The notes: generated by a model not told the origin, from the sequence alone. A stretch of DNA of 64,000 nucleotides from Thaumarchaeota archaeon UBA223 (GCA_002495905.1 DAHJ01000025.1:21995-85994), one strand, 5' to 3'. Numbered from the stretch's first letter, positions 40,703-62,056 are shown. Numbers and translations: made by a program.

Positions 40703-41221
40703 ATGATGGATTCAAAAATTTTTGCAGTAATTATCGTTGCAATTATTGGAATTGGGGCAGTTTTGTTTATGTTGCCGGAAGATAATAATGAATTAACAGT
40801 AATTGAACCTGAGCCAGTTATAGAAGAAGTTGTAGTTGAGCCTGAACCAGAACCCATAGTCGAACCAGAACCTGAACCGGAACCTGAAAGTAAAGCAATT
40901 GTTGATGAGAATGGAGTATTATCTGGAGAAGTTGAAGTAAAAATTGAAAATCTTCAATTTGGTCCATCTGAAATAACTATAAAGAAAGGAACAACAGTAA
41001 CTTGGAGACAAATAGATATGTCAATTGGAGGAAGTGGAGGAGGAGTAGATTGGCATAACATAGTCGAGGGACCTCCAGGGAAAAGAGGAGATCATGTATT
41101 CAAATCTAAGGAACTAACTTTCAATGGTGGTTTTTCGTTTACATTTAATGAAATTGGTGAATTTGAATATTATTGTGATCCACATCCATTTATGATTGGA
41201 AAAATCACAGTGGTTGAATAG
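40703..41221 (+). CDS. membrane-tethered type-1 copper protein (amicyanin-like cupredoxin)
   Basis: 172 aa. N-terminal TM helix, (E-P)n linker, then a cupredoxin domain with WHN...YYCDPHPFMIGKITVVE, giving His/Cys-x2-His-x2-Met ligand spacing. Confidence 0.85.
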   Translation: MMDSKIFAVIIVAIIGIGAVLFMLPEDNNELTVIEPEPVIEEVVVEPEPEPIVEPEPEPEPESKAIVDENGVLSGEVEVKIENLQFGPSEITIKKGTTVTWRQIDMSIGGSGGGVDWHNIVEGPPGKRGDHVFKSKELTFNGGFSFTFNEIGEFEYYCDPHPFMIGKITVVE

Positions 41222-44117: not shown

Positions 44118-44130
44118 CGAGATTCACCTA

Positions 44131-44427: not shown

Positions 44428-44478
44428 TGAAAATTATAGAATCTATACGATAATAAATTTAACTGAATAAGAAATATT

Positions 44479-44512
44479 AAAAAAAAAGAGTTGTTGTCCC
44501 CGAAGGGACAAC
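44479..44512 (-). terminator. GC-rich hairpin (GTTGTCCC-UUCG-GGGACAAC) followed by T9 on the coding strand, right after the PQQ-A stop
   Basis: Perfect 8-bp stem at 44493-44512. The A-run at 44479-44487 is a T-run on the minus strand. The same 20-nt hairpin recurs at 59194-59213. Confidence 0.7.
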
Positions 44513-44520
44513 TAAGATTA

Positions 44521-46782
44521 TTATGCTGTAGCTTGGCGAGATCTAGTGAAGAGTACACCAGAAACGACGACTAGAATTACACCTAATCCAATTGCAATAT
44601 ATGAAATTGGACTAATTGTTTCTACTTCGACTTCTTCAGTGACTATTACTTCACGGACTTCTACCTCACGGCTGATACTTTCTGGTAATTCATCAGGTAA
44701 ACCAAAGGCCATTATAGCTCCAGGAACAGAGCCTCTTAATGGTGGGTTTTGGCTAGTTAGACCACGTCCTCCAAATGATTGTAGGAGTAGAGTCTTACCA
44801 TTAGAATCTTGTCCAATACTTGGTTGAGTATCTAATGCTGAACCAAGATTGAATGTATGTAGAAGTTCACCGTTGTCGGTTGCAACTGCACGAAGCTTAC
44901 CATCGAAACCATTCCAGTAGACTACGCCACCAGATGAAATCATTCCACCTCGGTGTGCAACTGTATCTACAAAGAATTCCCATTCAACTGCACCAGTTCT
45001 TGCATTGATTGCAGTAACTGAGTGGTTTAATTGAGGTGGGAATGGTGCTTCAGAGTTTTTGTTGTTAATGAATCCACCATAGAAACTACCAAATCTTGAT
45101 TCTTGTGGAAGAATCTCTAAGAAGAGAGGTTCATTCTTACAAGATACATAGACATTGTTTCCATCGAATGCCATATCATTTTCAGCACAGCCTGATCCAT
45201 TTGGACTTTGCCAGATGTATTCAGTTGATGGATAATGTTGCCATGGTTTGTTCATGTCAGCTTCAACTCGTGGATCTAAGAAGAACCAGTCGTTGTTTTC
45301 GTCAAGACCGTCAATACCAAGTGCTTCAGAGTGCAATACACCTCGTCCTCGTTCACCATTAGTTGGTCCAGCACGATTATCACATTCTGCATTACAGTAG
45401 TATTTTGTGAATCTTACACCAGGAACTTCAGTGATCCATAATACTTCACCAGTATTTGCATCAAATGCATGAACGTGTCCTTGTTTACATTGTTTCATAA
45501 CAACTCTGCGTCCATCGATTTCTGCAAGTTGTGTATTCCAGGCACAGTCCATGTCCCAAAGGTCTTTAGTAGTACTTTGGAAGTACCATGCTAAGTCACC
45601 TGTCTTACTATCAAGTCCAACAATAGCTGAACCGAATAGACGTGGACCACGGGTATATGTGTGGTTAAAGTCAGGACCTGGTTGTGCAGTTCCGAAGAAG
45701 AGTTTTCCATTTTCTTCGTCAACTACAATCTGTCCCCAGATATTACTTACACCTGCATTGAATGGCATACCAGTCTTTTCATTATAAGTACCTGGATTAC
45801 CAGCCCAATCCCATCTTAGGATATCTTCTGGGACATCACAAGCTTGGATACCTTCGATATAACCAACATCACAAGTGTCAACTAACCATTGACCCCATGC
45901 GGCATATTCGTCAGGGAATAATTCACCGTTAGGTGGTTGATAAAAGAATCTCCAATTAAGGTGCTCATCGGTTGTTGCGTCAATGTTACAAGGGAAACTT
46001 GTACAGGCGCCTAAGTCATATGCAGCTACATATGCACGGCCACCATAGCTTCCTTCCATGTGTCCGCCGACTGCTACAATAATTTGGTTATTGGAACGAT
46101 CAACAACAGGAGCATGTGATCCTTGTGCGTTATACAAACCAGAGTTTGTTTCAACATTTCTACAATGTTGGAATAGAGTGAATACTTCGTCGCCGTTTTC
46201 AGCATCTACTGCTTTGATTGTACAACCAAAGGAGTTTAGCCAAAGTAAACCTTTACCATTCAATTCCCAATAGTTCATTGAATGAGTATGGGCGGCTAGA
46301 GAGTATACAGGTAAACCTGGAGGATTAAGTCCACGATTGTCTGCGACAGATGGACCAATTATATCAGGGTCATCACCGTCTGCAGTTCTTTCACTATACC
46401 AATTCATTGATCCATCAACCGAATCGATTGAGAAGATTGTCTGATAGTTGGTTGTGTAGTAGACATTACCGTCGACAACTAATGGAGGTGCGATACCACC
46501 AGTACCACAAAAGGTCATTGATGAACAACCTATTGAATCTGCATCAGGGATTGGAAATACCCATTGCAATTGAGCAAGGTGTACATTCTCTGATGTTAAT
46601 TGTGTTTGTGGGTTAAAGTTGTGTCCCCAGGAATTTGCATTAATGAATTCCCAGTTTCTCTCTGCTCTTGTAGAACCAAGTGCAGGAGTAACGTTTTGTG
46701 CACTAACCATTGGGGTTAGGAACAAAGATGCTGCAATTAATAGTGCAGCAACTAGGATACTTACGTATACACGTCGAGTCAT
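44521..46782 (-). CDS. PQQ-type quinoprotein dehydrogenase homologue, paralogue A (signal peptide, beta-propeller, acidic linker, C-terminal TM anchor)
   Basis: 753 aa. NWEFINANSWGHNFNPQTQLTSENVHLAQLQWVFP matches the quinoprotein N-terminal signature. Repeated W-containing blades. KDLWDMDCAWN. Tail ISPISYIAIGLGVILVVVSGVLFTRSRQATA. Confidence 0.8.
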   Translation of the reverse strand: MTRRVYVSILVAALLIAASLFLTPMVSAQNVTPALGSTRAERNWEFINANSWGHNFNPQTQLTSENVHLAQLQWVFPIPDADSIGCSSMTFCGTGGIAPPLVVDGNVYYTTNYQTIFSIDSVDGSMNWYSERTADGDDPDIIGPSVADNRGLNPPGLPVYSLAAHTHSMNYWELNGKGLLWLNSFGCTIKAVDAENGDEVFTLFQHCRNVETNSGLYNAQGSHAPVVDRSNNQIIVAVGGHMEGSYGGRAYVAAYDLGACTSFPCNIDATTDEHLNWRFFYQPPNGELFPDEYAAWGQWLVDTCDVGYIEGIQACDVPEDILRWDWAGNPGTYNEKTGMPFNAGVSNIWGQIVVDEENGKLFFGTAQPGPDFNHTYTRGPRLFGSAIVGLDSKTGDLAWYFQSTTKDLWDMDCAWNTQLAEIDGRRVVMKQCKQGHVHAFDANTGEVLWITEVPGVRFTKYYCNAECDNRAGPTNGERGRGVLHSEALGIDGLDENNDWFFLDPRVEADMNKPWQHYPSTEYIWQSPNGSGCAENDMAFDGNNVYVSCKNEPLFLEILPQESRFGSFYGGFINNKNSEAPFPPQLNHSVTAINARTGAVEWEFFVDTVAHRGGMISSGGVVYWNGFDGKLRAVATDNGELLHTFNLGSALDTQPSIGQDSNGKTLLLQSFGGRGLTSQNPPLRGSVPGAIMAFGLPDELPESISREVEVREVIVTEEVEVETISPISYIAIGLGVILVVVSGVLFTRSRQATA

Positions 46783-46925
46783 GCCCCGGTTTAGTGTAAA
46801 AAGTACATATAAATCCCTCGAATATTTTTACAAATTTTGAACTTATTGGTAAAAAATTCACGTTAGATTCAATAAATTAATTATAAATAATAATTTTATT
46901 AAAATAATTAATAATTTTTGAGAAA

Positions 46926-47468
46926 CTATTGCCAATTAAGATTAATTACAAGAAATTCAAATTGATCAAAAGTAAATGGAAAAGTTTCCTCAAAATAATA
47001 AACAGAACTCGATGGAATGCTTGAAATGATAACAGATTCTGTACGAACAGGTATAGCGTCACAACCACAGTCATTCAATATCCACCAAGTAACTTCTACC
47101 TCAATGTCGCTGGCATTTTTTAGTCCAAAATTAATAATCTGACCACTAACAACTGAATAAGATCTACCGTCAATTTCAATTTCATTATTTTGAAATTGTT
47201 GATTAATCGTAAGATTAGCATGAGTAATTAAATTATTTTCAAGAATAAGAGTAAGATTAGAAAGTTGCGTAGAAAGTAATTGATTTTCAGTTATCAAGGA
47301 CTCGATTTGAACAAGGTAATTTTTATTAGAATTCTCAATCTCTTCTAGTTCGGATTCAAGTTGATTGTTATTCGTAATAAAAAAAAATATTAAAAGAATA
47401 GAACTAATCAGTAGGAACAAATATATTATTCCGTACAGACGATTCACAAGTAATCTATAATCATACAA
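46926..47468 (-). CDS. N-terminally anchored coiled-coil protein, hypothetical
   Basis: 180 aa. One TM helix, a Leu/Asn/Gln-rich coiled coil, and a C-terminal beta-rich domain. TTG start in the track. Confidence 0.45.
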   Translation of the reverse strand: MYDYRLLVNRLYGIIYLFLLISSILLIFFFITNNNQLESELEEIENSNKNYLVQIESLITENQLLSTQLSNLTLILENNLITHANLTINQQFQNNEIEIDGRSYSVVSGQIINFGLKNASDIEVEVTWWILNDCGCDAIPVRTESVIISSIPSSSVYYFEETFPFTFDQFEFLVINLNWQ

Positions 47469-47520
47469 GATAATATGTTTTATAATGATTCATATAGATG
47501 CTAATACTAACAAGAAGTAG

Positions 47521-49125: not shown

Positions 49126-49142
49126 ATTAAGGAGTCCTACAC

Positions 49143-51329
49143 ATGAGAAAAACAATAATTTTGATGTTGATATTTTTATTAACTACTTCAATTATATTTC
49201 AATCTAATAATATCAACACAGAAGCAACAAACAATATTGATATTAAAAATATTGAAAGAGAAAAAAGAAATTGGGAGTTTGTAAATCATGATGCATTTGC
49301 TACAAATTATTCGCCACAAGATCAGATCAACACAGAAAATGTTCACATGTTAGAATTGAAATGGACATTTCCATTTCCACCTGCTACAGAATTTTTAAAA
49401 TATCAAGAAGGAGGGATAGCATTCGAAGGTGCAATAACACCGCCATTAATTATAGATGGGGAAGTATTTGTTGCCTCTAATATGAGAAACGTATACTCTT
49501 TTGAAGCTAATTCAGGAGATATGAATTGGATAAATATTTACGAACATAATTGGAATAAAGCAAAACAAGAATTACCTGAAGTTGCAGGAGGAGCACCGCA
49601 CATACATGGTTTACAATATATTGATGGAAACTTATTCACTAGTACTTTAAACTGTGCAGTAGACGCAATTGATGCGAAATCGGGAGAAATATCATTCAGT
49701 ATTCAGGAAATTTGTAAGAACGTTGAAGGTAATTATTATTCTTGGCCTATGTATGAAGGAATTGGAAAATACGGATCGCCTTCTCATCCAGGTCCAATTT
49801 ATGAAGATGAAAATATCTTAGTAGTTGCAATAACAGGAGCTACAGCATCATGGGGAGGAGGAAGAGCATTTATTGATGGATATAATCTCAATGTCAATCC
49901 GCCCGAAAGATTATGGAGGAAATTTCTTGCACCTCCTGGAGAAGGAGATCCAGAATGGGCATTAAGAGAATGTGATAAAGGATGGTTCTTTTCTTATCCA
50001 GAATGGAAAGAATCAGGAAGAATGGGAATCCCTTGTAACGAGGTTCCTAGGGAGAATTTGATAAACGATTGGGGAGTTCCTAAACACTACACGTCTTCAG
50101 TAGCAGCGATTTGGGGACAAATGGCGTTGGATCAGGAAACTGGAATAGTGTACTTTGGAACTGGAAACCAAGGAGGATGGCCAAATCAGACGCATGTAAC
50201 TGGCCCTAATTTATACTCCAGTGCAACGCTAGCAGTTGATGTAAAATCAGGAGAAATTATTTGGTGGTATCAACAAGTAGCAAGAGACATGGTTGAAGGA
50301 GATACATCATGGAACACAGTACTTACAGAATTGAATATCAATGGGGAAAAGAAAAAAGCTATAATAAAATATTCTGTAACGGGTCTTTTATGGGCACTTG
50401 ATGCAGCTACGGGAGAACCATTGTGGATATATGAATCACCAATACTAAAAAGTAGAACTGATTCAGACGGAGTAATCAGAGGCAGGACGTCAGGACATCC
50501 TTGCATAGGATGTGATCCGAGAACACAAGACGGATACTGGAATGATGTAATGAGTCATTACGACATGCAGGAAAAGAAGTGGTTGAATTATCCTTCGAAA
50601 GATTGGTTTTATTGGATTCCTGCAAGAGCTGGAGAAGCAGATATTGCATTAAATACAGATTTAGAAAGAATTTATGTTCCTGTTGCGGGTGGTGTAGATA
50701 AAGCAATAAAAGCAGATAAATATGGAACACTAGGAGTAAGACCTGGACAAGATTACTACATTGATACTTTATCAAAAAATGTAACATTGTATAGTTTAGA
50801 TGCAAACACAGGAGAAGAAATATGGAGTCATTTTATTGATGGAGTAGCTTACAGAGGAGGAGTTATGACGAGCGGAGGAATTGTATTTTTACCTGTTGCA
50901 GATGGAAATCTATATATGTTCAATGCAGAAAATGGAGAAATAATAGATAAAATGTTTCTAGGTAATTCATTAGTTGTTTTACCTACAATTGGTTATACCA
51001 AAGAAGGAGAAGCAAGATTATTTGTAATTAGTGGCGGAAGAGGAGCATATGCAATAGGAGGGATAACGAAACAAAATGTACCAGGAGCTATATATTCATT
51101 CGGTTTACCTGAAGGTTACATTCAACAAGAAGAGAGCATAGAAGAAAGGGTAATTGAAGAAGTTATCGAAGAAAAAATTGAGATAATTGAACAGGAAGAG
51201 TCAGAATCACAGATAAACGAAGAAACAAAAGAACAAGAAAATCAAATAGAACAAGAGAATTATACGATATATTATTTATTGGGAATAATTTTACTAATTG
51301 TTTTAACAGTAATAATTAGAAGACGGTAA
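49143..51329 (+). CDS. PQQ-type quinoprotein dehydrogenase homologue, paralogue B
   Basis: 728 aa. NWEFVNHDAFATNYSPQDQINTENVHMLELKWTFPFP. Propeller repeats. Acidic IEE-rich linker. Tail YYLLGIILLIVLTVIIRRR. AAGGAG lies 9 nt upstream of the ATG, and the gene starts 17 nt after elp3. Confidence 0.8.
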   Translation: MRKTIILMLIFLLTTSIIFQSNNINTEATNNIDIKNIEREKRNWEFVNHDAFATNYSPQDQINTENVHMLELKWTFPFPPATEFLKYQEGGIAFEGAITPPLIIDGEVFVASNMRNVYSFEANSGDMNWINIYEHNWNKAKQELPEVAGGAPHIHGLQYIDGNLFTSTLNCAVDAIDAKSGEISFSIQEICKNVEGNYYSWPMYEGIGKYGSPSHPGPIYEDENILVVAITGATASWGGGRAFIDGYNLNVNPPERLWRKFLAPPGEGDPEWALRECDKGWFFSYPEWKESGRMGIPCNEVPRENLINDWGVPKHYTSSVAAIWGQMALDQETGIVYFGTGNQGGWPNQTHVTGPNLYSSATLAVDVKSGEIIWWYQQVARDMVEGDTSWNTVLTELNINGEKKKAIIKYSVTGLLWALDAATGEPLWIYESPILKSRTDSDGVIRGRTSGHPCIGCDPRTQDGYWNDVMSHYDMQEKKWLNYPSKDWFYWIPARAGEADIALNTDLERIYVPVAGGVDKAIKADKYGTLGVRPGQDYYIDTLSKNVTLYSLDANTGEEIWSHFIDGVAYRGGVMTSGGIVFLPVADGNLYMFNAENGEIIDKMFLGNSLVVLPTIGYTKEGEARLFVISGGRGAYAIGGITKQNVPGAIYSFGLPEGYIQQEESIEERVIEEVIEEKIEIIEQEESESQINEETKEQENQIEQENYTIYYLLGIILLIVLTVIIRRR
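49857..50611 (+). repeat. mosaic tract in PQQ-B: five blocks 100 percent identical to PQQ-C at constant offset +2160
   Basis: Line-by-line comparison. Blocks 49857-49918, 49943-50089, 50112-50180, 50343-50438 and 50487-50611 equal 52017-52078, 52103-52249, 52272-52340, 52503-52598 and 52647-52771. The intervening segments are strongly divergent. Confidence 0.9.
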
Positions 51330-51335
51330 TTAAGA

Positions 51336-53411: not shown

Positions 53412-53461
53412 GAACAAATTTTTCACTAAACCTATTAGGGAAGACATGATAAATTTTATTT

Positions 53462-55450
53462 GTGCAGAAAGTAAGCATATTAATTTTTATTTTAATTATT
53501 TCAGCCTTAACTTCATTGAATACTGAAACATTATTTTCAAGTGCGATTGATGATAACGGATTTGATTCAATTGCGCCGAATTATGATTATCGTGCTACAG
53601 GATTCAATCCACAAACTCAAATAAATAAAGAAAATGTCAATAATCTTGAATTAAAATGGGTACACGCATGGCCCTTGCCCGAATCAATAGATGGGATTGA
53701 GCCAAGAGTTGGGTCTATTGCAAATTCCATAATTGTAGATGGAATAGTATACAATAGAATGGAAGATTTGAGAATTTCAGCAATTGATGCAAAAACTGGA
53801 GAAAGTATTTGGTCATTTCAAGCAGACCCATATCTAGTAAATATAGAAATTGCAAAAAGAGAATTACCCGTTAATCTAGATTTTTATCCCTCATTATCTA
53901 GTCATGCACACAGTTTTTCTTTTGCAGAAAATAAAATATTTGCACCATGGCCAAATTGTCAAGTTTTTGGTCTCAATGCAAAAACTGGTGAAATTGAATT
54001 TAGATTAAAGACGCCAACTTGTAAAGATTTAGAAGGAAATGAAGGTTTATTCAAAGGTTTACAATCTTCAGGTCCTGTGTTTGACACTGTCAATCGTATT
54101 TTAATTTACGGAACAGGAGGAAGAGAAGCTGTAGAAGGAGGAAGAGGTGCATTTAGAGGATATGATCTTGATTCAGGAGAATTATTATGGACATTTTATT
54201 TGATGCCCCCGCAAGATGTGGGAGATCCAGAATGGACTATAAGAGTAGCCGATAAAGGTTGGATTCAAGGAATAAGAGCATCCAATATTCCAGAAGATAT
54301 TTTAAGAAATGACTGGGGAAGATGTCCAGAAAATTGTGGATTTGGAAAAGGAGATATGGGAATAGGATGGGGTCAATGGGCAGTAGATGAAGATAATGGA
54401 ATTGCATATTTAGCGACAGGTAATCCATCGCCAAGTTGGAATGCAACATACAGACCAGGGCCAAACGTTTTTAGTAATTCAGTTTTAGCGATAGAAACTA
54501 AAACAGGGAATTTACTGTGGTGGCATCAGATTGTAGCACATGATTTAGGAGACTTAGATTGTTCTTGGAATACAGTATTAGCAGAGATAGATGGAACAAA
54601 AACAGTTTTCAAATTATGTAAAGGAGCTTTTCTTTATGCAATGAATGCAGAAACTGGAGAATTATTATGGAGTACAGATTATCATCCACATGTTAAACGA
54701 GGATCAATAGGTCCAGATCCAAATTTTGATTTGGCATTGGATCCATTGAATAAAGATGATATGAATAAACCATGGGTGTCATATCCTGGCAATGAACCAA
54801 ACTGGAGAAAAGAATCAGGAGGAGCAGAGTCAGATGTTACATTGGCATATGGAAAAGTATTTTCTACAACTTATCATAAATGGTCATTACAAAAGATTAC
54901 ATCAGTAGAGCCATCAATGCGAGATTCATGGGGAAGAATTTCAATGTATTCAGATCAAGAACTTGCATCGAATGCGACAGTATGGGCACATGATGCAAAA
55001 ACTGGAGAACTGATTTGGAAATATGACATAGACAAAGTAGGAATAAGAGGTGGAGTAACTGCTTCAGGAGAGATGATTTGGTTTTGTGACACTGATGGAG
55101 TAATAAGAGCTTTAGATGAGGAAAATGGAAATGTGTTGTGGGAAAGATCTCAAGGTCATCAATGTCCAGTACAACCATCATTTGGAGCTGATAAAGATGG
55201 AAATATCAAGATATTTTCTTTAATAGGGTCAGGAGGAATATTAGGAAGATCAGAACCAATACCTGGGGCGTTACTTGCATATGGATTATCGGGAAACACA
55301 GAAGCAAATGTAAAAAAAGATGTAGAAGTGATTGTTGAAACAGAGATAATAACAGAAGAAATCATAAGTCCAGTTTCATATTTGATACTTGGATTTTCAT
55401 TATTATTGATAATTACTTCGTTATTGATTTTGAGAAAGTCTAAAAATTAA
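53462..55450 (+). CDS. PQQ-type quinoprotein dehydrogenase homologue, paralogue D
   Basis: 662 aa, GTG start. YDYRATGFNPQTQINKENVNNLELKWVHAWP. HDLGDLDCSWN. Tail ISPVSYLILGFSLLLIITSLLILRKSKN. Confidence 0.78.
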   Translation: MQKVSILIFILIISALTSLNTETLFSSAIDDNGFDSIAPNYDYRATGFNPQTQINKENVNNLELKWVHAWPLPESIDGIEPRVGSIANSIIVDGIVYNRMEDLRISAIDAKTGESIWSFQADPYLVNIEIAKRELPVNLDFYPSLSSHAHSFSFAENKIFAPWPNCQVFGLNAKTGEIEFRLKTPTCKDLEGNEGLFKGLQSSGPVFDTVNRILIYGTGGREAVEGGRGAFRGYDLDSGELLWTFYLMPPQDVGDPEWTIRVADKGWIQGIRASNIPEDILRNDWGRCPENCGFGKGDMGIGWGQWAVDEDNGIAYLATGNPSPSWNATYRPGPNVFSNSVLAIETKTGNLLWWHQIVAHDLGDLDCSWNTVLAEIDGTKTVFKLCKGAFLYAMNAETGELLWSTDYHPHVKRGSIGPDPNFDLALDPLNKDDMNKPWVSYPGNEPNWRKESGGAESDVTLAYGKVFSTTYHKWSLQKITSVEPSMRDSWGRISMYSDQELASNATVWAHDAKTGELIWKYDIDKVGIRGGVTASGEMIWFCDTDGVIRALDEENGNVLWERSQGHQCPVQPSFGADKDGNIKIFSLIGSGGILGRSEPIPGALLAYGLSGNTEANVKKDVEVIVETEIITEEIISPVSYLILGFSLLLIITSLLILRKSKN

Positions 55451-55455
55451 ACAGA

Positions 55456-56223
55456 TTAAGGTCGATCAAAGAGTCCAAGTTCTTCGTATGAAATTACTAC
55501 ATTTCTATCTAGTACGCTGAAATCTCCATATTTATACCATTTTAATGGAAATACAGTACCTTCTGCAACTACTTCAGTTTCAAAATTCAAGAAATCCCAT
55601 CGATCGTCAATCATAAGCCATTCACCGTCAGAGAATTCCCATACAGAAATTACATTAACTTCCATACTAAATTCACCAATCAGTTTTCCTTCGCCGTGAT
55701 TATAAAGAGAATGAACTACAGTAGCTTGATCTCCAACAAATGTAACATCATAACTAACGATATTAAGTTCGATTGACATGGTATTTCCAAGAATTGTAGA
55801 AATCAGAATTCGTATATTGTTATATCCTTTGTAACTTCCTGCAAAAGCACCTGCTTGTCCAGTCCATTCAGCATAGGTAGCTTTATCATTAGAATAATAC
55901 TTTAGAGTTTCTCGACTATCTCTGGAACCAAAAGCTTTATGGAAGTCGTCAATTGTAGTTCTAAGTAATTCTTTTTGTGGATGATCACCACTAATAACTT
56001 CTTCAGCTTGAACAACTACTTCAACTTGAACAGGTTCTGCTTCTCCTTCGCGAGGTTCTTCTTGAACAGCAACTTCAACAACTCTAACAGGTTCAGTTAC
56101 AATTTCATTATCAGGAAAAACAGGTAATGTAGGATAAGTAATAATTCCAACGATTCCGACTATTCCTATAAGGAAAAAAACTGCTGCAATCTTAGTTCTA
56201 TCTGATTTAGTTAATGTTGCCAT
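55456..56223 (-). CDS. N-terminally anchored NTF2/SnoaL-like fold protein
   Basis: 255 aa. TM helix, acidic E/V/P linker, then about 150 aa with an NTF2-like pattern ending ISVWEFSDGEWLMIDDRWDF. Its start lies 2 nt after the PQQ-E stop. Confidence 0.55.
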   Translation of the reverse strand: MATLTKSDRTKIAAVFFLIGIVGIVGIITYPTLPVFPDNEIVTEPVRVVEVAVQEEPREGEAEPVQVEVVVQAEEVISGDHPQKELLRTTIDDFHKAFGSRDSRETLKYYSNDKATYAEWTGQAGAFAGSYKGYNNIRILISTILGNTMSIELNIVSYDVTFVGDQATVVHSLYNHGEGKLIGEFSMEVNVISVWEFSDGEWLMIDDRWDFLNFETEVVAEGTVFPLKWYKYGDFSVLDRNVVISYEELGLFDRP

Positions 56224-56225
56224 AA

Positions 56226-58325
56226 CTAACCACTAGCGCCAAATTTCCAGTTTCCACTTGTAATAAACATAGTAGCAGATATTGCTAGTATTATAAATGA
56301 TATAATTACCATAAGATAAGACAATGGACTGATTACTGTTTCGGTTTTAATTGTTTCAATTTCAGTAACTACCTCTTGAACTTGAGATGGAGCAGCTGGA
56401 GCAGCTGGATCTGCAGGAACAACAACTACCTCTTCGGAAATAGCAACAGATGATTCATCTCCTAATCCTAATGCAATCATTGCACCTGGAATTCCTGTTT
56501 GTCCCCAAGATGCAATAGACATACCGCCTGTTTGTACGAATACTTTCATATCTCCTTGACTATCTGCACCAAGTGTAGCTTGTGTCCAAAGACCAATTCC
56601 AAATGAACGTTTTGAAAGAAGTTCGCCAGTTTCAGAGTTCAATAGATACAGCCATCCATCACCGGATGGAACATATACAACTCCACCAGATACAGTTAAA
56701 CCACCTCTAAAACCTGCGCCGTCAATGAAGAATCTCCAAAGTTCTTCTCCGGTATCAGTATCTAAAGCATAAATTGACGAGTTAGTAGGATGACTTGTTG
56801 GAAGCATGACTAATTGATTGCCAAAGTCTTCTGGGTATTCCGGTGAAACAACAGTTACTGGCATGTTATAAGATCCCAAGTATAATCTTTCGCCATCATA
56901 GGCCATATCGGCTTCAAGGATACCAGCAAAATTTGCACTAGTGAATGATGTTTCTCCTACATGAGAAGTAGGCCATGCACGCTGTAAATCATCAATATTT
57001 TTTGGGTCTGGATAGGACATTCCAGGTTGAGGAAGCCAAGCATCTGGAGGATGATATATCCAGAATGGTTCTCCTGTAGCCGCATCGAGTGCGTACATAA
57101 ATCCATTCTTACATCCTTTGAATATAGCTTTCTTGCCTTCTACTTCACCAAGAATTGCATTCCAAGCACAATCGTAATCCCACATATCATGAGGTACGGT
57201 TTGATACCACCAGACAAACTCACCAGTTTTTGCATCAAGTGCTACGATAGCACTGCCATAAAGATTAACTCCAGGTCTTCTTAATGCATTAGGATATGGA
57301 CCACTTTCGCCAGTGCCAAGATAAACAAGACCAGTTTCTTGATCAATTAAATAATGACCCCAAACAGTAGCAACAGAACTAGCAGTATGAACCATTCCAC
57401 GTGAACTTTGTGGATTAATCCAGTCATTTTTAAGATTTTCTTCTGGAACTTCGTTACATGGAACTCCCAATCTACCAGTGTCTAACCACTCAGGAAATGA
57501 AAAGAAATAACCTATATTACAATGATGTAAAGCCCAATCTGGATCTCCTTCAGCAGGTGGCATCAAAAAGGTTTGCCAAATTCGTTTTGGATTATCCATA
57601 TCACTTACATCATAACCTGCAATGAATGAACGTCCTCCGTTACCTGAAGATCCCATAACAGGAACAACCATTATATCTTCATAGAATTGTGGAGGATGAG
57701 TTCCAATACTTGCATAGTAACCTTGATTTCCCCAAGCTTGAGCTTCTTCCTCAGTTCCACACATTTCCATTACGGAGAAAACAACATCTCCTAAAAGAGA
57801 ATCATGTCCGTCAACTTGACATGATTGAAGACTTGGTATAATTATTCCTTTATCATCATAATAATTTACTGCATGAGTGTGAGGTAACATTCCTTTAACA
57901 TGAGGATAGGTTTGTTGTAAAATATCATTATCGTATGCAACAACATTATTCCAGATTAAACTTCCACTAGCAGAATCGACCGCAACTAAAGCTCTTTGGT
58001 TTGTAGCAGAATAAGCTATACCGTCAACAATAAGAACTGGAGAACCTGAACCTGCATATGTCTTAGCGCCACCTATGGTTGGATAAGTAGTTGGAGGATA
58101 AGGATAAATCCATTTCATTTCTAAATTGTCGGCATTATCTCGATTAATTATTGATTGAGGATTATGACTACGGCCGTATTGACCATAATTAATCATGTCC
58201 CAATTGGACATTTCTCGAGTCAATTCTTGGCCAGAAGCAGTAATAGGATTATCGTCAAAATTTAGAGGAAATGCAATAGATGCAATTAATAAAATGAATA
58301 ATACGAATAGTTGAATTTGTCTCAC
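56226..58325 (-). CDS. PQQ-type quinoprotein dehydrogenase homologue, paralogue E
   Basis: 699 aa, GTG start. NWDMINYGQYGRSHNPQSIINRDNADNLEMKWIYPYP. HDMWDYDCAWN. Tail ISPLSYLMVIISFIILAISATMFITSGNWKFGASG. Confidence 0.8.
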   Translation of the reverse strand: MRQIQLFVLFILLIASIAFPLNFDDNPITASGQELTREMSNWDMINYGQYGRSHNPQSIINRDNADNLEMKWIYPYPPTTYPTIGGAKTYAGSGSPVLIVDGIAYSATNQRALVAVDSASGSLIWNNVVAYDNDILQQTYPHVKGMLPHTHAVNYYDDKGIIIPSLQSCQVDGHDSLLGDVVFSVMEMCGTEEEAQAWGNQGYYASIGTHPPQFYEDIMVVPVMGSSGNGGRSFIAGYDVSDMDNPKRIWQTFLMPPAEGDPDWALHHCNIGYFFSFPEWLDTGRLGVPCNEVPEENLKNDWINPQSSRGMVHTASSVATVWGHYLIDQETGLVYLGTGESGPYPNALRRPGVNLYGSAIVALDAKTGEFVWWYQTVPHDMWDYDCAWNAILGEVEGKKAIFKGCKNGFMYALDAATGEPFWIYHPPDAWLPQPGMSYPDPKNIDDLQRAWPTSHVGETSFTSANFAGILEADMAYDGERLYLGSYNMPVTVVSPEYPEDFGNQLVMLPTSHPTNSSIYALDTDTGEELWRFFIDGAGFRGGLTVSGGVVYVPSGDGWLYLLNSETGELLSKRSFGIGLWTQATLGADSQGDMKVFVQTGGMSIASWGQTGIPGAMIALGLGDESSVAISEEVVVVPADPAAPAAPSQVQEVVTEIETIKTETVISPLSYLMVIISFIILAISATMFITSGNWKFGASG

Positions 58326-58469
58326 GAAATGAATTGTTCAAAGTTATTAATATGGTTTTATCAGAAAATTAAAATTTCATATATAAATATGTCTAAAGAT
58401 TGTTCAGATATGGGTATTAACGGAAGTATATCAAAGACTATATATCATGATAATATTTACTAGTAAATA

Positions 58470-59120
58470 TTGGAGTCAAAAAAAGGAAATTTTAATTTTC
58501 CAATCATTATAATTATTTTTGCAGTAGCAATTGGAATACTATTTTTATTCAATACTCCAGCACCTGTAGAACTAAATGTAGAAGAAAATATTGAAGATAT
58601 AGAGGAAAAAGAAGAAAATGTAAAAGAAGAAGATGTAAAAGTAGAAGAAATTGAAATAAATCCAGATATTCCAGTTGTTGAACCTGAGTTGCCAGAAATA
58701 GTAGAAGAAATAATACAAGAAGAAGTAAGAAGAATTAATGAAGATTGTCCATTTGGTAAAGAATTAAGAAGTACACCTGAGAATCCAATGACTTATACTT
58801 GTAAATTAATAACTCTCGAAAATGGGGGACAGTTTGGAGATGTAAGATTGTCAATAAATAATGGAGAGTTTGAGCAGCCAGAGATTCAAGTAAAAAAAGG
58901 TACTACAGTGACATGGGTGATGAGAGATAAAACAGCAGGTGCTGGAGGAGATGTTCCATATCATCAAGTATCTTCAATAGACGGGTTATTTGATTCTGGA
59001 GAATTATTTGTATCAGGGGAGAATAAATTCAGTTATGTATTTGACGAAGTTGGAGAATTCGAATATAATTGTCCGCCACATCCTTGGATGGTTGGCAAAA
59101 TTATTGTCGTAGATGAATAA
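58470..59120 (+). CDS. membrane-tethered type-1 copper protein (amicyanin-like cupredoxin), second copy
   Basis: 216 aa. N-terminal TM helix, long acidic linker, and a cupredoxin with YHQ...YNCPPHPWMVGKIIVVDE (Cys-x2-His-x2-Met). Confidence 0.82.
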   Translation: MESKKGNFNFPIIIIIFAVAIGILFLFNTPAPVELNVEENIEDIEEKEENVKEEDVKVEEIEINPDIPVVEPELPEIVEEIIQEEVRRINEDCPFGKELRSTPENPMTYTCKLITLENGGQFGDVRLSINNGEFEQPEIQVKKGTTVTWVMRDKTAGAGGDVPYHQVSSIDGLFDSGELFVSGENKFSYVFDEVGEFEYNCPPHPWMVGKIIVVDE

Positions 59121-59180
59121 TTTTTAAAAAAAAATAAGAAACATACTAAGTATAATTAAGTTATAAAATACATTTTTTGG

Positions 59181-59213
59181 AAAAAAAAGAGTGGTTGTCC
59201 CCGAAGGGACAAC
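59181..59213 (-). terminator. second copy of the GTTGTCCC-UUCG-GGGACAAC hairpin plus T8, right after the PQQ-F stop
   Basis: Stem-loop at 59194-59213, A-run at 59181-59188. It also sits between convergent 3' ends (cupredoxin on +, PQQ-F on -). Confidence 0.7.
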
Positions 59214-59220
59214 TAAATTA

Positions 59221-61476
59221 CTAAGTAGATCCTGCCTTTGAGCGTTGGAATAGAACGCCAGCTACTACAATAAGAACTACACCAAGTCCAATAGCTACAT
59301 AAGATACTGGGCTGATTACTTCTTCAGTAGTAACAACTTCGACTTCTTTTTCAACGACTGTTTCTACAGGTACTTCGACTTCAACGACGACTTCTTTTTC
59401 TACTTCAACTTCGACTACGTTTTCAATTTCGACTACTCTTTCGACTTCGACTTCGACTTCTTCAATAATAGTCTCAACATCTGGTAGTACGTCTGGTAGA
59501 CCAAGTGCGACGAGTGAACCCTCAGTTGCAGTGTTTCCATATACGAAACCACCACCACCACCTACGTGGATAAAGATCTTGTGTTTACCGTCAGAGTCTG
59601 CGCCAATTGTTGGCATTACACTAACAGGTACACCGAAGAATCTCTTGTGAACTAGTTCACCAGTGTTTGCATCGAATATGTATAGATTTCCGTCACCGGC
59701 ATATCCATATACAGCTGAACCTGTGGCCATTAATCCACCACGGAAACCTACATCAGGAATGAATGCACTCCAGTCAGCTTCGCCTGTGTTGACGTTAACT
59801 GCATAGATTGTAGTATTAACAGGATGACCGCTTGCTTGGATGTTACTAGCTTGGTTGCCAAAGTCGACAACGTTACCAGTTGTTGTCCAACGTGGATCAT
59901 TGTAATTTGCAACGAATATGTATTTGCCGTTGTAAGCCATATCAGCTTCGAGTGCTCCTGCTAACCATGGATTCCAGAGTGCTGGTGATGGATCAGGTGC
60001 GTTCAACCAATCTTTGTTCATGTGTTCAAATGTCATACGACAACATGCGTCAGGATGGTTTGGATCACCATCAGGTCCAACTCCATAGTTTGTACCAGGT
60101 GCAGTTCTCCAAGTTGTTGGAGCTTCCCATACCCATACAGGTTCACCAGTGGCTGCATTCAATGCATATGCCATTCCGTTCTTACAACCTTTGATTAAGA
60201 CTTTAGTTCCTTGAGCTTTGGCCATTATGCCACCCCATGAACAGTCCCAATCCCATAAGTCGTGAGGATTAGAATGGAACCACCATTGGATTTTACCAGT
60301 ATCTACTTTGAGTGCAACGATAGCACTACCAAAGAGGTTAGGTCCAAATCTGTATGATGCATTACTATAAGGTCCTACATCTCCAGTTCCGATATATACT
60401 AAACCAAGTTCCTCGTCAATTGGGAAATTACCCCAAACTACTGACATTGCGCTAGCAGTGTGGACTTCTCCGAAATGAGGAGTTCCTTCTTTCATGTTAA
60501 TCCAGTCGTTTTCAACTGCTTCGTCTGGAACTTCAGTACAGTTTACTGCAAGTTTTCCAGTGTCAAAGAAGTCAGGTGCAGAGAAGTACCAACCATTGCC
60601 GTTTGCTTCTGTACAAGCGTCAATAGCCCAGTTTTTCTGTGTACCACGATTATCTGGCATTAACCAAGTATTCCATAATTCAACAGGGTTACTTGGATCA
60701 GTCATGTCAAATGCTTTAACAGAAGATCTTCCTCCTCCGCCACTAGCACCCATGATTGGCCAAATCATTGTATTACCGCTAAATGCAGGTGGGTGATTTG
60801 ATTGTCCTGAAATTCTACCTTTGCTTCCTAAAGTTCCGATGATTCCTTCATCAGGATTTCCGTATTCAGCTACGGTACCACAAAGGTCTTCAACTCCAAG
60901 TTTCCATGCCAAGCTACCATCAGCTGCATTCCATCCGCTAAGTAGACAAGGTTGACTACTGGTAATTAACCATCCGCTATCACCAAACTGTCTATAATAG
61001 TTTATTGCGTGAGTATGTCCCCATGCACTTTGGAAGAATGGGTATTCTGCAGTAATAGCAGGTCCATCCCATAAGTTTGCTGGTTCATCTGTAAAGTAAA
61101 CTTCTTCACCTGTTTTTGCATCAACAGCGTGTATTGCACGTGAGTTTTTACCTACATATGCAACACCGTCGACGATAAGAACTGGTGCGCTTGAACCAGC
61201 TTGGGAATTACCCCAAGAGAAGTCATTGGTTGGATAAGGAAACATCCATTTCATTTCCAGCCATTGAGCATTTTCATTATTTATTTCGAATTGTGGGCTA
61301 TAACTACCGCCAGTAGGCTGATAATTAATAAATTCCCAATTACCAGTTACAACTTTTGGTACACCACCACCGCCTGGAGGACCTCCAGGGTCAAATGCAT
61401 TAGCAACTAATGCAAATGAAGATAGTGCCAAAATTAAAGCAACTAGTAACCCAACTATAGTTAAGTGTCGAGTCAT
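59221..61476 (-). CDS. PQQ-type quinoprotein dehydrogenase homologue, paralogue F
   Basis: 751 aa. NWEFINYQPTGGSYSPQFEINNENAQWLEMKWMFPYP. HDLWDWDCSWG. A very long (E/V)n linker. Tail ISPVSYVAIGLGVVLIVVAGVLFQRSKAGST. Confidence 0.8.
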   Translation of the reverse strand: MTRHLTIVGLLVALILALSSFALVANAFDPGGPPGGGGVPKVVTGNWEFINYQPTGGSYSPQFEINNENAQWLEMKWMFPYPTNDFSWGNSQAGSSAPVLIVDGVAYVGKNSRAIHAVDAKTGEEVYFTDEPANLWDGPAITAEYPFFQSAWGHTHAINYYRQFGDSGWLITSSQPCLLSGWNAADGSLAWKLGVEDLCGTVAEYGNPDEGIIGTLGSKGRISGQSNHPPAFSGNTMIWPIMGASGGGGRSSVKAFDMTDPSNPVELWNTWLMPDNRGTQKNWAIDACTEANGNGWYFSAPDFFDTGKLAVNCTEVPDEAVENDWINMKEGTPHFGEVHTASAMSVVWGNFPIDEELGLVYIGTGDVGPYSNASYRFGPNLFGSAIVALKVDTGKIQWWFHSNPHDLWDWDCSWGGIMAKAQGTKVLIKGCKNGMAYALNAATGEPVWVWEAPTTWRTAPGTNYGVGPDGDPNHPDACCRMTFEHMNKDWLNAPDPSPALWNPWLAGALEADMAYNGKYIFVANYNDPRWTTTGNVVDFGNQASNIQASGHPVNTTIYAVNVNTGEADWSAFIPDVGFRGGLMATGSAVYGYAGDGNLYIFDANTGELVHKRFFGVPVSVMPTIGADSDGKHKIFIHVGGGGGFVYGNTATEGSLVALGLPDVLPDVETIIEEVEVEVERVVEIENVVEVEVEKEVVVEVEVPVETVVEKEVEVVTTEEVISPVSYVAIGLGVVLIVVAGVLFQRSKAGST

Positions 61477-61582
61477 GGCTGCAAATAATCAATTGTCGTA
61501 TATAAAATGGTTGTTGTAATAAAAATTTACGCAGTAGAGCATATCATAAAATTAATATTTTATTCATATATGATTATCATTA

Positions 61583-62056
61583 ATGAGTAAATGGACTTTA
61601 CTAGGAATCTTCATTTTAATTTTATTGCCGGGAATAGATGCAACTAGTAAAGAAATTACCTCTATATCGGTAAAAGTTTCCAATACTAATTCACAAAATA
61701 ATGTTGTAGAGATTTCTGCAAATTTACAAAATAATAATGCAGAGCCAATTAGCGAACAGGTATTAGTTTTTTATATAAATGATCAAATATTTGCAAGTAA
61801 AATTACTAATGAAATAGGATCGTCAAATATTCAATTTCAAGCTTTGGATGAATTATACAAAGTGGAGATAAAATTTGAAGGATCGGAACTTTATCATGAA
61901 TCAATAAGTGAAATAGTAATTATTGAAAAAACAAATCAAGAAAACACAAGTGAACAGAACATTCCAAGTGAGTTGTTAATTATAGTATCAATACTTACTC
62001 TAGGAATTGTAGGGTCAGGAATATTATATTATCTAAATAAAATCTCGAAGAATTAA
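61583..62056 (+). CDS. small secreted beta-rich (Ig-like?) protein with C-terminal TM anchor
   Basis: 157 aa. Signal peptide, about 100-aa beta-strand-rich region, and C-terminal LLIIVSILTLGIVGSGILYYLNK. Confidence 0.45.
   Translation: MSKWTLLGIFILILLPGIDATSKEITSISVKVSNTNSQNNVVEISANLQNNNAEPISEQVLVFYINDQIFASKITNEIGSSNIQFQALDELYKVEIKFEGSELYHESISEIVIIEKTNQENTSEQNIPSELLIIVSILTLGIVGSGILYYLNKISKN

What the first reader, a model, noticed from the sequence alone, without database searches (positions are those of the whole stretch)
44479..62056. Six-paralogue array of membrane-tethered PQQ-type dehydrogenases with cupredoxin and NTF2-like partners: candidate outward-facing oxidation module for a cytochrome-free respiratory chain
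Seen in sequence: six ORFs share one architecture. They are A 44521-46782 (-), B 49143-51329 (+), C 51336-53411 (+), D 53462-55450 (+), E 56226-58325 (-) and F 59221-61476 (-). Each has a signal peptide and the quinoprotein N-terminal signature (NWE.(I/V)N....Y/F-SPQ.QI...N...L..KW.FP). Each also has W-rich propeller repeats, an HD(L/M)WD.DC(A/S)W-type segment, an acidic linker and a single C-terminal TM helix. About 13 of these 17 kb encode this one family.

Interleaved genes are an amicyanin-like cupredoxin (58470-59120), a tethered NTF2-like protein abutting E, two small anchored proteins and an ABC-2 exporter. B, C and D look like one operon, with 6- and 50-nt gaps, and B starts 17 nt after elp3.

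Established: PQQ methanol/ethanol-family dehydrogenases are periplasmic and hand electrons to cytochrome c. The TTQ quinoprotein methylamine dehydrogenase uses amicyanin.

Inference: with only blue-copper carriers in view, this looks like a multi-substrate extracytoplasmic alcohol/aldehyde/sugar oxidation system wired through a cupredoxin. No pqq biosynthesis genes are in the window, so the cofactor source is open.

From memory, multi-copy PQQ dehydrogenases have been noted in non-ammonia-oxidising deep-ocean thaumarchaeal MAGs. I cannot verify that this locus is one of them. To my knowledge their substrates, metal, acceptor and partners are untested.
Basis: partly seen in the sequence, partly recalled or inferred. 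Interest (0 to 1): 0.85.

Follow-up and report, generated by a model that had tools for sequence, protein, structure and literature searches.

The report
Known thaumarchaeal PQQ-dehydrogenase gene array
This is a real cluster of six surface-tethered PQQ-type dehydrogenase genes with a blue-copper protein and an NTF2-like partner, but it comes from the heterotrophic marine Thaumarchaeota, where this gene family and its proposed role were already published in 2020.

Summary
Six paralogous ORFs (34-62% identical) each have a signal-like N-terminus, an eight-bladed PQQ-type propeller and one C-terminal TM helix. They cover 73% of 44479-62056. Pfam, a profile-profile alignment and a confident AlphaFold model all place them with PQQ alcohol/methanol dehydrogenases, far from BamB.

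The window comes from heterotrophic marine Thaumarchaeota (97% to MAG ALOHA_A2.5_79, 86% to ASW8_bin1). Aylward & Santoro (2020) already described these multi-copy, tethered, highly expressed PQQ dehydrogenases. They noted the missing Cys-Cys, the DYD/DXD motifs and possible electron transfer to blue-copper proteins. The core is therefore already known, and biochemically untested.

New details found here:
- Two active-site classes. A, D, E and F have D-x-D-C...C-K. B and C have E/Q-x-D-S/T...S-V.
- The lanthanide-type Asp is invariant in 46/46 family members.
- An acidic metal ligand appears moved from position 177 to 261 in E and F.
- The cupredoxin has an amicyanin-type ligand set.
- The NTF2-fold gene recurs beside these dehydrogenases as far as Aigarchaeota.
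- B and C show gene conversion.

PQQ supply remains open: only a pqqC-like gene is reported for the lineage.

The parts
44521..46782 (-). Paralogue A (753 aa). PQQ-type propeller, class I active site (D-M-D-C ... C-K). Position 261 is Gln and there is a Glu at 177+1.
49143..51329 (+). Paralogue B (728 aa). Class II active site (E-G-D-T ... S-V). It starts 17 nt after elp3. Long Glu-rich stalk.
51336..53411 (+). Paralogue C (691 aa). Class II active site (Q-A-D-T ... S-V). Mosaic of blocks identical to B.
53462..55450 (+). Paralogue D (662 aa). Class I. The only copy with the full XoxF-like ligand set Glu177/Asn261/Asp303/Asp305.
56226..58325 (-). Paralogue E (699 aa). Class I with D-Y-D-C. Ser at position 177 and Glu at 261. 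Modelled at pLDDT 85.7.
57168..57179 (-). E residues 383-386, DYDC: the catalytic-base Asp, the lanthanide-type Asp (invariant in 46/46 family members) and the first Cys of the class-I Cys pair.
57873..57881 (-). E residues 149-151, H-T-H. His151 is invariant in the family and aligns with the PQQ-carboxylate Arg109 of methanol dehydrogenase. This segment replaces the canonical CCDxVNRG.
59221..61476 (-). Paralogue F (751 aa). Class I (D-W-D-C). Ser at 177 and Asp at 261. Long (Glu-Val)n stalk.
58470..59120 (+). Membrane-anchored cupredoxin (216 aa): N-terminal TM, acidic stalk, amicyanin-like domain with His ... Cys-Pro-Pro-His-Pro-Trp-Met. Candidate electron acceptor.
55456..56223 (-). p255: N-terminal TM, Glu/Val/Pro stalk, NTF2-like (SnoaL/ketosteroid-isomerase fold) domain at residues ~78-220, then a conserved tail that models poorly. 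Starts 2 nt after E's stop.
61583..62056 (+). p157: signal-like N-terminus plus a C-terminal TM. No family match. Syntenic with F and the ABC-2 genes in HMT genomes.
46926..47468 (-). p180: N-terminally anchored protein with no family match, conserved between A and elp3 in HMT genomes.
62053..63812 (-). ABC-2 permease (62053-62889) and ATPase (62889-63812). The same pair lies next to PQQ-type genes in HMT. A similar pair occurs in one Thermoproteota MAG and one soil MAG.
40703..41221 (+). Second anchored amicyanin-like cupredoxin (172 aa), outside the stated range. Its orthologues lie ~3 kb from A-type genes in other HMT genomes.

Best explanation
The region is the main quinoprotein gene array of a heterotrophic marine thaumarchaeon (HMT/HMN lineage).

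**Shown.**
- Six ancient paralogues encode eight-bladed propellers of the PQQ alcohol/methanol-dehydrogenase superfamily.
- Each is predicted to be exported and held at the outer face of the membrane by a C-terminal helix.
- The residues that stack on PQQ, or sit where its carboxylate binders sit, are among the best conserved. These are Trp243 (conserved as Trp), Arg109 (replaced by His), Arg331 (Lys) and an invariant Arg next to the Trp476 position.
- So is the extra Asp that marks lanthanide-type enzymes.

**Inferred.**
- The proteins bind PQQ plus a metal. The D-x-D signature points to a lanthanide, with Ca2+ as the alternative.
- They oxidise dissolved alcohols, aldehydes or sugars outside the cell.
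- PQQH2 is reoxidised in two one-electron steps by the co-located, tethered amicyanin-like cupredoxin. That protein passes the electrons to the heme-copper terminal oxidase.
- Energy is thus conserved without substrate uptake, in the way methanol dehydrogenase uses cytochrome cL.
- A, D, E and F look catalytically conventional.
- B and C have Glu/Gln at the base position and Val at the Lys position. They probably have altered chemistry or reduced activity.
- The NTF2-like protein co-transcribed with E is probably a bound accessory subunit or a product-handling enzyme.
- PQQ may be scavenged from seawater, because only a pqqC-like gene is reported for the lineage.
For: **Family and fold.**
- PF01011 at E 6e-30 to 5e-47.
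- hhalign of a 46-member family profile against a canonical ADH/MDH profile: probability 100%, E 1e-98, 505 aligned columns.
- E model: pLDDT 85.7, pTM 0.83.
- The top 30 Foldseek PDB hits are all PQQ ADH/MDH at E 1e-27 to 1e-33. They include the lanthanide enzymes 6dam, 6zcv and 4mae. BamB and YxaL follow at about 1e-14.

**Active site.**
- Four of 15 canonical active-site columns fall among only 19 invariant columns of 585 (P = 9e-4).
- Asp305 is Asp in 46/46 members.
- The E+F clade carries Ser at 177 with Glu/Asp at 261. The A/D clade keeps an acid at 177 or 178 with Gln/Asn at 261. So most copies (not B) retain at least three carboxylates.

**Topology.**

**Cupredoxin.**
- Its ligands align with amicyanin His53/Cys92/His95/Met98.
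- It lies between F and E in three independent HMT assemblies (L001, L004, L005).
- A homologue lies just upstream of the E orthologue in a groundwater thaumarchaeon (L006).

**NTF2-like gene.** It is adjacent to E in five HMT genomes. Homologues lie next to PQQ-type genes in three Aigarchaeota MAGs and one freshwater thaumarchaeon.

**Organism and literature.**. PMC7300363 reports high expression, no cytochrome c, and proposes the quinone pool or blue-copper proteins as acceptors.
Against: - No cofactor, metal, substrate or electron-transfer partner has been measured for any family member.
- All six score far below the curated methanol/ethanol-family cut-off (98-159 bits against 480). They score about equally on the 'acido-empty-quinoprotein' model.
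- The vicinal Cys103-Cys104, Glu55 and Ser174 are absent. Glu177 is absent in most copies.
- The only published evidence for PQQ synthesis in the lineage is a PF03070 pqqC-like gene.
- The conserved patterns map to single clades, so they represent few independent events.
- Cupredoxins are common in Thaumarchaeota, so adjacency could be coincidental. No cupredoxin was detected beside the Aigarchaeota copies.
Confidence: 0.55

Rival explanations
1. These are genuine PQQ dehydrogenases, but electrons go straight to the membrane quinone pool, as in membrane-bound glucose dehydrogenase. The cupredoxin serves other respiratory steps.
For: The Cys-Cys pair needed for cytochrome-directed transfer is absent, as it is in quinone-reducing glucose dehydrogenase (established knowledge of mGDH). 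PMC7300363 lists the quinone pool as one option. The proteins are membrane-anchored.
Against: There is no N-terminal multi-helix quinone-binding domain. The TIGR03074 score is 80-102 bits against a cut-off of 832. The propeller hangs on a flexible stalk of roughly 25-70 residues from a single helix, which is a poor geometry for reaching a membrane quinone. The anchored cupredoxin sits inside the array in several genomes.
Confidence: 0.2
2. These are 'empty' or re-purposed quinoprotein homologues. They carry no PQQ (another cofactor, or none) and act as binding proteins or non-redox enzymes at the cell surface.
For: Only a pqqC-like gene is reported for the lineage. Scores on the acidobacterial 'empty quinoprotein' model TIGR04528 equal those on the methanol/ethanol model. 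Several canonical PQQ and metal ligands are replaced.
Against: The PQQ-stacking Trp, the Lys/Arg331 equivalent (class I), the catalytic Asp (class I) and the lanthanide Asp are kept. Invariant columns are enriched at active-site positions. A surface enzyme needs no importer to pick up exogenous PQQ. TIGR04528 is also missed by a wide margin (91-133 bits against 650).
Confidence: 0.15
3. Only the class I copies (A, D, E, F) are dehydrogenases. The class II copies (B, C) are catalytically dead or regulatory/structural partners of the others.
For: B and C have Glu/Gln at the catalytic Asp, Val at the Lys/Arg331 position and no Cys386/Cys405 pair. This signature defines a monophyletic subclade (13 of 46). 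The D303E mutant of methanol dehydrogenase is a strongly impaired enzyme (PDB 1h4j appears among the hits; the impairment is from my own knowledge).
Against: Class II keeps Trp322, His151, Asp385, Glu471 and Arg540. It is maintained in many genomes and kept homogeneous by gene conversion, which suggests it is functional. Glu could still act as a base.
Confidence: 0.3

Closest known systems
PQQ-dependent dehydrogenases of heterotrophic marine Thaumarchaeota (Aylward & Santoro 2020, PMC7300363; Reji & Francis 2019 preprint; PMC13374868)
   Same: It is the same gene family and lineage. The E orthologue is 86% identical in MAG ASW8_bin1, which that paper used, and 97% in ALOHA_A2.5_79. Already reported there: multi-copy genes, signal peptides, TM anchors, no Cys-Cys, DYD/DXD motifs, high expression, and proposed transfer to quinone or blue-copper proteins.
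   Different: Nothing essential differs. Details not found in the passages of those papers that I searched are the class I / class II split, the Cys386/Cys405 pair, the 177-to-261 carboxylate shift, the NTF2-like partner and B/C gene conversion.
Lanthanide-dependent XoxF / ExaF / PedH type PQQ alcohol dehydrogenases (e.g. PDB 6dam, 4mae, 6zcv)
   Same: Eight-bladed fold. They are among the top structural hits. The extra Asp two residues after the catalytic Asp is present in all six copies. D carries the full Glu/Asn/Asp/Asp ligand set.
   Different: About 20% identity. No vicinal Cys-Cys. Arg109 is replaced by His. Glu177 is missing in most copies. They are C-terminally anchored instead of soluble periplasmic. 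No XoxG/XoxJ or cytochrome partner is in view.
Methylamine dehydrogenase-amicyanin couple (TTQ quinoprotein to blue-copper protein)
   Same: A quinoprotein encoded next to an amicyanin-like cupredoxin. The copper-ligand loop C-x2-H-x2-M is the same.
   Different: The dehydrogenase here is a PQQ-type propeller, not a TTQ enzyme. No mau genes are present. The cupredoxin scores 44.9 bits against the amicyanin cut-off of 110 and is membrane-anchored.
Membrane-bound glucose/quinate dehydrogenase family (TIGR03074)
   Same: Membrane-associated PQQ propeller without the Cys-Cys pair.
   Different: It lacks the N-terminal five-helix domain. It is anchored by one C-terminal helix. Scores are far below the cut-off.

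Membership tests
PQQ eight-bladed propeller dehydrogenase superfamily (Pfam PF01011) | Sequence match above the Pfam gathering score | tested here: met
   105-161 bits against a cut-off of 26.7 for all six. hhalign probability 100% against a canonical profile.
PQQ eight-bladed propeller dehydrogenase superfamily (Pfam PF01011) | Eight-bladed propeller fold closest to solved PQQ ADH/MDH structures | tested here: met
   Model pLDDT 85.7. The top 30 Foldseek hits are all PQQ ADH/MDH (E to 2e-33, TM 0.6-0.74). BamB-like proteins follow at about 1e-14. Blades were not counted directly.
PQQ eight-bladed propeller dehydrogenase superfamily (Pfam PF01011) | Bound PQQ cofactor | not testable with these tools
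   No ligand modelling or biochemistry was available. The lineage has only a pqqC-like gene on record.
Methanol/ethanol family PQQ dehydrogenases (TIGR03075) | Score above the curated cut-off (480 bits) | tested here: not met
   98-159 bits.
Methanol/ethanol family PQQ dehydrogenases (TIGR03075) | Vicinal Cys103-Cys104 disulfide over PQQ | tested here: not met
   These positions align to Tyr/Leu/Gly and Met/Leu/Gly/Ala. The segment reads ...H-x-H... instead of CCDxVNRG.
Methanol/ethanol family PQQ dehydrogenases (TIGR03075) | Trp243 stacking under PQQ | tested here: met
   Trp322 in 46/46 family members.
Methanol/ethanol family PQQ dehydrogenases (TIGR03075) | Catalytic base Asp303 and Arg/Lys331 | tested here: inconclusive
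   Asp and Lys are present in A, D, E and F. B has Glu and Val, and C has Gln and Val.
Methanol/ethanol family PQQ dehydrogenases (TIGR03075) | Metal ligands Glu177 and Asn261 | tested here: inconclusive
   Only D has both. C has Asp177/Asn261. A has Glu at 177+1 and Gln261. E has Ser177/Glu261 and F has Ser177/Asp261. B has Thr177/Asn261.
Methanol/ethanol family PQQ dehydrogenases (TIGR03075) | Cytochrome c acceptor, either a separate gene or a fused domain | tested here: not met
   None of the six has a cytochrome c domain hit, unlike many bacterial relatives carrying PF13442. No cytochrome hit appeared among the window ORFs scanned; many smaller ORFs were not scanned.
Lanthanide-dependent PQQ dehydrogenases (XoxF/ExaF/PedH type) | Additional Asp two residues after the catalytic Asp (D-x-D) | tested here: met
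   Asp385 in all six copies and in 46/46 relatives. D-x-D is present in A, D, E and F; B and C have E/Q-x-D.
Lanthanide-dependent PQQ dehydrogenases (XoxF/ExaF/PedH type) | Lanthanide binding and lanthanide-dependent activity | not testable with these tools
   Requires metal analysis or an activity assay.
Membrane-bound glucose/quinate/shikimate dehydrogenase family (TIGR03074) | N-terminal multi-helix membrane domain and a score above 832 bits | tested here: not met
   One N-terminal signal-like segment and one C-terminal helix only. Scores are 80-102 bits.
BamB / YVTN-like non-catalytic propellers | Best match to BamB models and structures | tested here: not met
   BamB models score 24-52 bits against cut-offs of 285-423. 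Structural hits are about 18 orders of magnitude weaker than the PQQ enzymes.
Acido-empty-quinoprotein group A (TIGR04528) | Score above the curated cut-off (650 bits) | tested here: not met
   91-133 bits.
Amicyanin (TIGR02657), for the cupredoxin at 58470-59120 | Type-1 copper ligands His, Cys, His, Met with a C-x2-H-x2-M loop | tested here: met
   The alignment to amicyanin 1aac/2gb2 shows H...C-P-P-H-P-W-M opposite H...C-T-P-H-P-F-M.
Amicyanin (TIGR02657), for the cupredoxin at 58470-59120 | Equivalog score (110 bits) and a methylamine dehydrogenase (mau) context | tested here: not met
   44.9 bits. No mau-type genes appear in the scanned ORFs.
NTF2-like / SnoaL superfamily, for the protein at 55456-56223 | Alpha+beta cone fold | tested here: met
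   Residues 78-220 model at pLDDT above 90. Foldseek probability is 1.0 and TM about 0.8 to ketosteroid-isomerase-like, LinA and SnoaL-type structures. Some orthologues hit PF12680, PF13474 or PF13577. The window protein itself has no Pfam hit.

The most novel reading that the evidence does not exclude
These proteins form a distinct, archaea-centred class of quinoprotein with three unusual properties:

- It has lost the canonical Cys-Cys pair. It uses a different Cys pair (next to the metal Asp and the PQQ Lys) and an invariant His-x-His segment.
- It binds a lanthanide through a re-arranged carboxylate set.
- It passes electrons directly to a membrane-tethered amicyanin-like cupredoxin, with an NTF2-fold accessory subunit.

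That would be the first direct PQQ-to-blue-copper respiratory couple. It would run on PQQ scavenged from seawater by an organism that cannot make the cofactor.
Probability: 0.2. Interest if true: 0.7.

Novelty: already known. Interest (0 to 1): 0.35.

Why it matters
Heterotrophic marine Thaumarchaeota are abundant in the dark ocean, and these genes are reported among their most highly expressed. What they oxidise, and how the electrons enter respiration, therefore bears on deep-sea carbon turnover.

This is a recognised open problem rather than a new discovery. The present analysis sharpens the experiments:
- It identifies which copies look catalytically conventional (A, D, E, F) and which do not (B, C).
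- It picks out D as the copy with the complete lanthanide-type ligand set.
- It names the cupredoxin and the NTF2-like protein as specific partners to test.
- It flags that the basis for PQQ self-sufficiency is thin.

Tried and rejected
- **BamB/YVTN-type non-catalytic propeller.** Rejected on profile scores and structural ranking.
- **Membrane glucose dehydrogenase type.** Rejected: no N-terminal membrane domain and low score.
- **Archaeosortase-type C-terminal sorting signal** for the conserved I-S-P-x-S-Y motif before the TM. No NCBIfam sorting-domain hit at E <= 0.01. Left unexplained.
- **Direct Pfam/NCBIfam assignment** of the 255-, 157- and 180-aa proteins gave nothing.
- **Obligate link between the NTF2-like gene and PQQ genes.** Two distant homologues (P0177, P0174) are not immediately adjacent to a PQQ gene. 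The association is recurrent, not universal.
- **Cys386/Cys405 co-occurrence** (33 both, 13 neither, 0 single) looked like strong covariation. The NJ tree shows class II is one clade, so it is essentially one evolutionary event.
- **Ligand geometry.** It could not be measured because model coordinates are not exposed.
- **ATPase match to TIGR03864** ('PQQ-dependent alcohol dehydrogenase system' ABC ATPase). It is below the cut-off and weaker than generic DrrA/GldA matches, so it is not used as evidence.


Full report
**Observation.** The six ORFs are present exactly as listed.
- They align over their whole length at 34-42% pairwise identity, with B/C at 62%.
- They fill 73% of the stated interval.
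- Each has one N-terminal hydrophobic segment and one C-terminal transmembrane segment followed by basic residues.
- A Glu/Val-rich stalk precedes the C-terminal helix. It is long in B and F and short in the others.
- The intergenic gaps (17, 6 and 50 nt) are as stated. The 255-aa gene starts 2 nt after E's stop.
- The interleaved genes are a cupredoxin (PF00127, with amicyanin as best NCBIfam match), an ABC-2 permease/ATPase pair, and three anchored proteins without family hits.

- B and C do not carry the HDxWDxDC motif, and A carries it with KD in place of HD.
- D lacks NWE.
- A seventh copy lies just past the window end.
- A second cupredoxin lies at 40703-41221.

**Source organism.**
- The exact E protein is encoded on ~90-kb contigs assembled from marine metagenomes, including a Tara Oceans run.
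- In species-representative genomes the best matches are Nitrososphaerales MAG ALOHA_A2.5_79 (97%), Thaumarchaeota ASW8_bin1 (86%) and SAT139 (74%).
- The rest of the window is archaeal housekeeping: A-type ATPase, topoisomerase VI, Elp3 and ribonucleotide reductases.
- ASW8_bin1 is one of the genomes used to define the heterotrophic marine Thaumarchaeota.

**Family placement.**
- All six pass Pfam PQQ by a wide margin.
- They fall far below the curated methanol/ethanol, membrane-GDH, BamB and 'empty quinoprotein' cut-offs.
- A database search shows a separate tier of about 40 close relatives, then a drop to about 25% identity with bacterial enzymes.
- In genomes, this tier is confined to non-ammonia-oxidising Thaumarchaeota (marine, groundwater, soil), Aigarchaeota and one Thermoproteota MAG. 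The genes often sit in tandem arrays.
- A family profile aligns with a canonical ADH/MDH profile at probability 100% and E 1e-98.
- The AlphaFold model of E is confident (pLDDT 85.7, pTM 0.83).
- Its 30 best PDB matches are all PQQ alcohol/methanol dehydrogenases, with lanthanide enzymes near the top. BamB-type propellers are about 18 orders of magnitude weaker.
- The refutation condition 'non-catalytic BamB/YVTN-like family' is therefore not met.

**Active site.** I reconstructed XoxF 6DAM residues 8-546 from the printed alignment and mapped canonical residues through hhalign, using methanol dehydrogenase numbering.

| Canonical residue | In this family |
|---|---|
| Trp243 | Trp, 46/46 |
| Asp305 (lanthanide Asp) | Asp, 46/46 |
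| Arg109 | His, 46/46, inside an H-x-H segment |
| Trp476 position | aromatic residue, followed by an invariant Arg-Gly-Gly |
| Asn394 position | adjacent Glu471 is near-invariant |
| Thr159 | Ser/Thr in most |
| Cys103-Cys104, Glu55, Ser174 | absent |

Four of the 15 mapped positions fall among only 19 invariant columns of 585 (P = 9e-4). This argues for a maintained ligand pocket.

**Two active-site classes.**
- Class I (A, D, E, F; 33 of 46 relatives) reads D-x-D-C ... C-K.
- Class II (B, C; 13 of 46) reads E/Q-x-D-S/T ... S-V/T.
- The two cysteines are always both present or both absent. Canonical enzymes have Ala/Ser and Pro at those positions.
- I infer a disulfide beside the metal Asp and the PQQ-binding Lys. 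It might stand in for the lost Cys-Cys pair.
- An NJ tree shows class II as a single clade, so this covariation is one event and the inference is weak.

**Metal ligands vary by clade.**
- D has the full XoxF-type set Glu/Asn/Asp/Asp.
- The A group has an acid at 177 or 178 plus Gln.
- The E and F clades have Ser at 177 but Glu or Asp at 261.
- This looks like relocation of one carboxylate with the site preserved.

**Partners.**
- *Cupredoxin.* It has an N-terminal anchor, an acidic stalk, and a domain that aligns to amicyanin with all four copper ligands.
  - It lies between F and E in HMT assemblies down to 57% identity.
  - Homologues sit near PQQ-type genes in groundwater Thaumarchaeota, including directly upstream of the E orthologue.
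- *255-aa protein.* It has an anchor, a stalk and a confidently modelled NTF2-like domain. Its tail is strongly conserved but models poorly, which suggests a segment that folds on a partner.
  - It follows E in five HMT genomes.
  - Homologues at 29-48% identity lie beside PQQ-type genes in two Caldarchaeum MAGs, one Calditenuis MAG and one freshwater thaumarchaeon.
  - Two other homologues are not adjacent to such genes.
- *Array synteny.* The whole array is syntenic at 75% identity: seventh PQQ gene, SBP/ABC genes, ABC-2, p157, F, cupredoxin, E, p255, D, C, B, elp3, p180.

**Mechanism.** The best-supported reading is an outward-facing set of PQQ/metal dehydrogenases. Their electrons leave through the tethered cupredoxin to the terminal oxidase. 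The steps from 'binds PQQ' onward are inferred.

Rival readings:
- direct quinone reduction;
- cofactor-less or re-purposed propellers;
- class II copies being inactive.

**Prior knowledge.**
- Aylward & Santoro 2020 (PMC7300363) reported:
  - 4-19 PQQ dehydrogenases per HMT genome, in 21 families;
  - signal peptides and TM domains;
  - absence of the Cys-Cys motif, and DYD/DXD motifs;
  - top-ranked expression;
  - the hypothesis that, lacking cytochrome c, they feed the quinone pool or a blue-copper protein.
- Reji & Francis and a 2026 study (PMC13374868) agree on the high copy number and on the role.
- Sheridan et al. 2023 (PMC10640624) note that these genes are colocalised in pairs or trios.
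- The only PQQ-synthesis evidence cited is a PF03070 pqqC-like gene.
- I found no paper linking these enzymes to an NTF2-like partner, and none on thaumarchaeal eight-bladed enzymes in two recent lanthanide surveys I checked.

**Verdict.** The feature is real and correctly read in outline, but already known. The incremental points are the active-site classes, the carboxylate shift, the specific conserved partners, and B/C gene conversion.

Noticed in passing
window 49857-50610 (B) versus 52017-52770 (C): B and C are mosaics. Blocks of 98-100% nucleotide identity (roughly 49938-50070, 50343-50430 and 50478-50610 in B) are embedded in sequence only 51-60% identical. This indicates gene conversion between the tandem paralogues, or possibly an assembly chimera.
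   Followed up: partly
window 40703-41221 (+): A second membrane-anchored amicyanin-like cupredoxin (PF00127, 45.9 bits; Pro/Glu-rich stalk) sits beside the A-type ATPase genes. Its orthologues lie about 3 kb from A-type PQQ genes in other HMT genomes (L013, L029, L030, L039).
   Followed up: partly
L001 1-4447 (the source contig beyond window position 64000): Past the ABC-2 genes the contig continues with a sugar-type solute-binding protein, an ABC ATPase, a 383-aa protein (its L004 counterpart has a weak solute-binding-protein hit) and a seventh PQQ-type gene (604 aa). The same order is seen in L004.
   Followed up: no
C-termini of A, D, E and F (e.g. window 44521-44660 for A): A conserved I-S-P-x-S-Y motif directly precedes the C-terminal TM helix and basic tail. 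It resembles a sorting or processing signal, but no known C-terminal sorting-domain model matched.
   Followed up: partly
window 55456-55560 (the p255 C-terminal tail, residues ~221-255, plus the preceding T-E-V-V-A-E-G-T-V-F-P-L segment): The tail after the NTF2-like domain is nearly invariant across homologues yet is modelled at pLDDT below 50. That is typical of a segment that becomes ordered only on a partner protein.
   Followed up: no
window 62889-63812 (-); also L028, L040 and L085: The ABC ATPase gives a sub-threshold match (164 bits against 302) to the bacterial 'PQQ-dependent alcohol dehydrogenase system' ABC ATPase. ABC-2 permease/ATPase pairs also lie next to or near PQQ-type genes in a Thermoproteota MAG, a soil thaumarchaeon and a freshwater thaumarchaeon.
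   Followed up: partly
window 44001-46000, 56001-58000 and 60001-62000: Windows covering A, E and F are at 38-39% GC, and B-D are at about 35%, against about 30-34% for most of the window. This may reflect amino-acid composition or the bacterial origin proposed for these genes in PMC13374868.
   Followed up: no
window 27973-28087 (-) and 26531-26582 (+): Rfam reports a 115-nt tRNA match that ARAGORN did not call (probably an intron-containing archaeal tRNA) and a borderline 52-nt tRNA-like match.
   Followed up: no
window 29776-31863 (+) and 32216-34618 (+): An NrdD-like (anaerobic-type) ribonucleotide reductase with an N-terminal HTH and ATP-cone sits next to an RNR large-subunit homologue (Ribonuc_red_lgC/lgN) with a TSCPD domain. 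That is an unexpected pair for a presumed aerobe.
   Followed up: no
E residues 169/189 and 269/290 (window ~57456-57821): Two further cysteine pairs are conserved across the family (44-45 of 46 and 37-40 of 46). This is consistent with structural disulfides in an extracytoplasmic protein.
   Followed up: no
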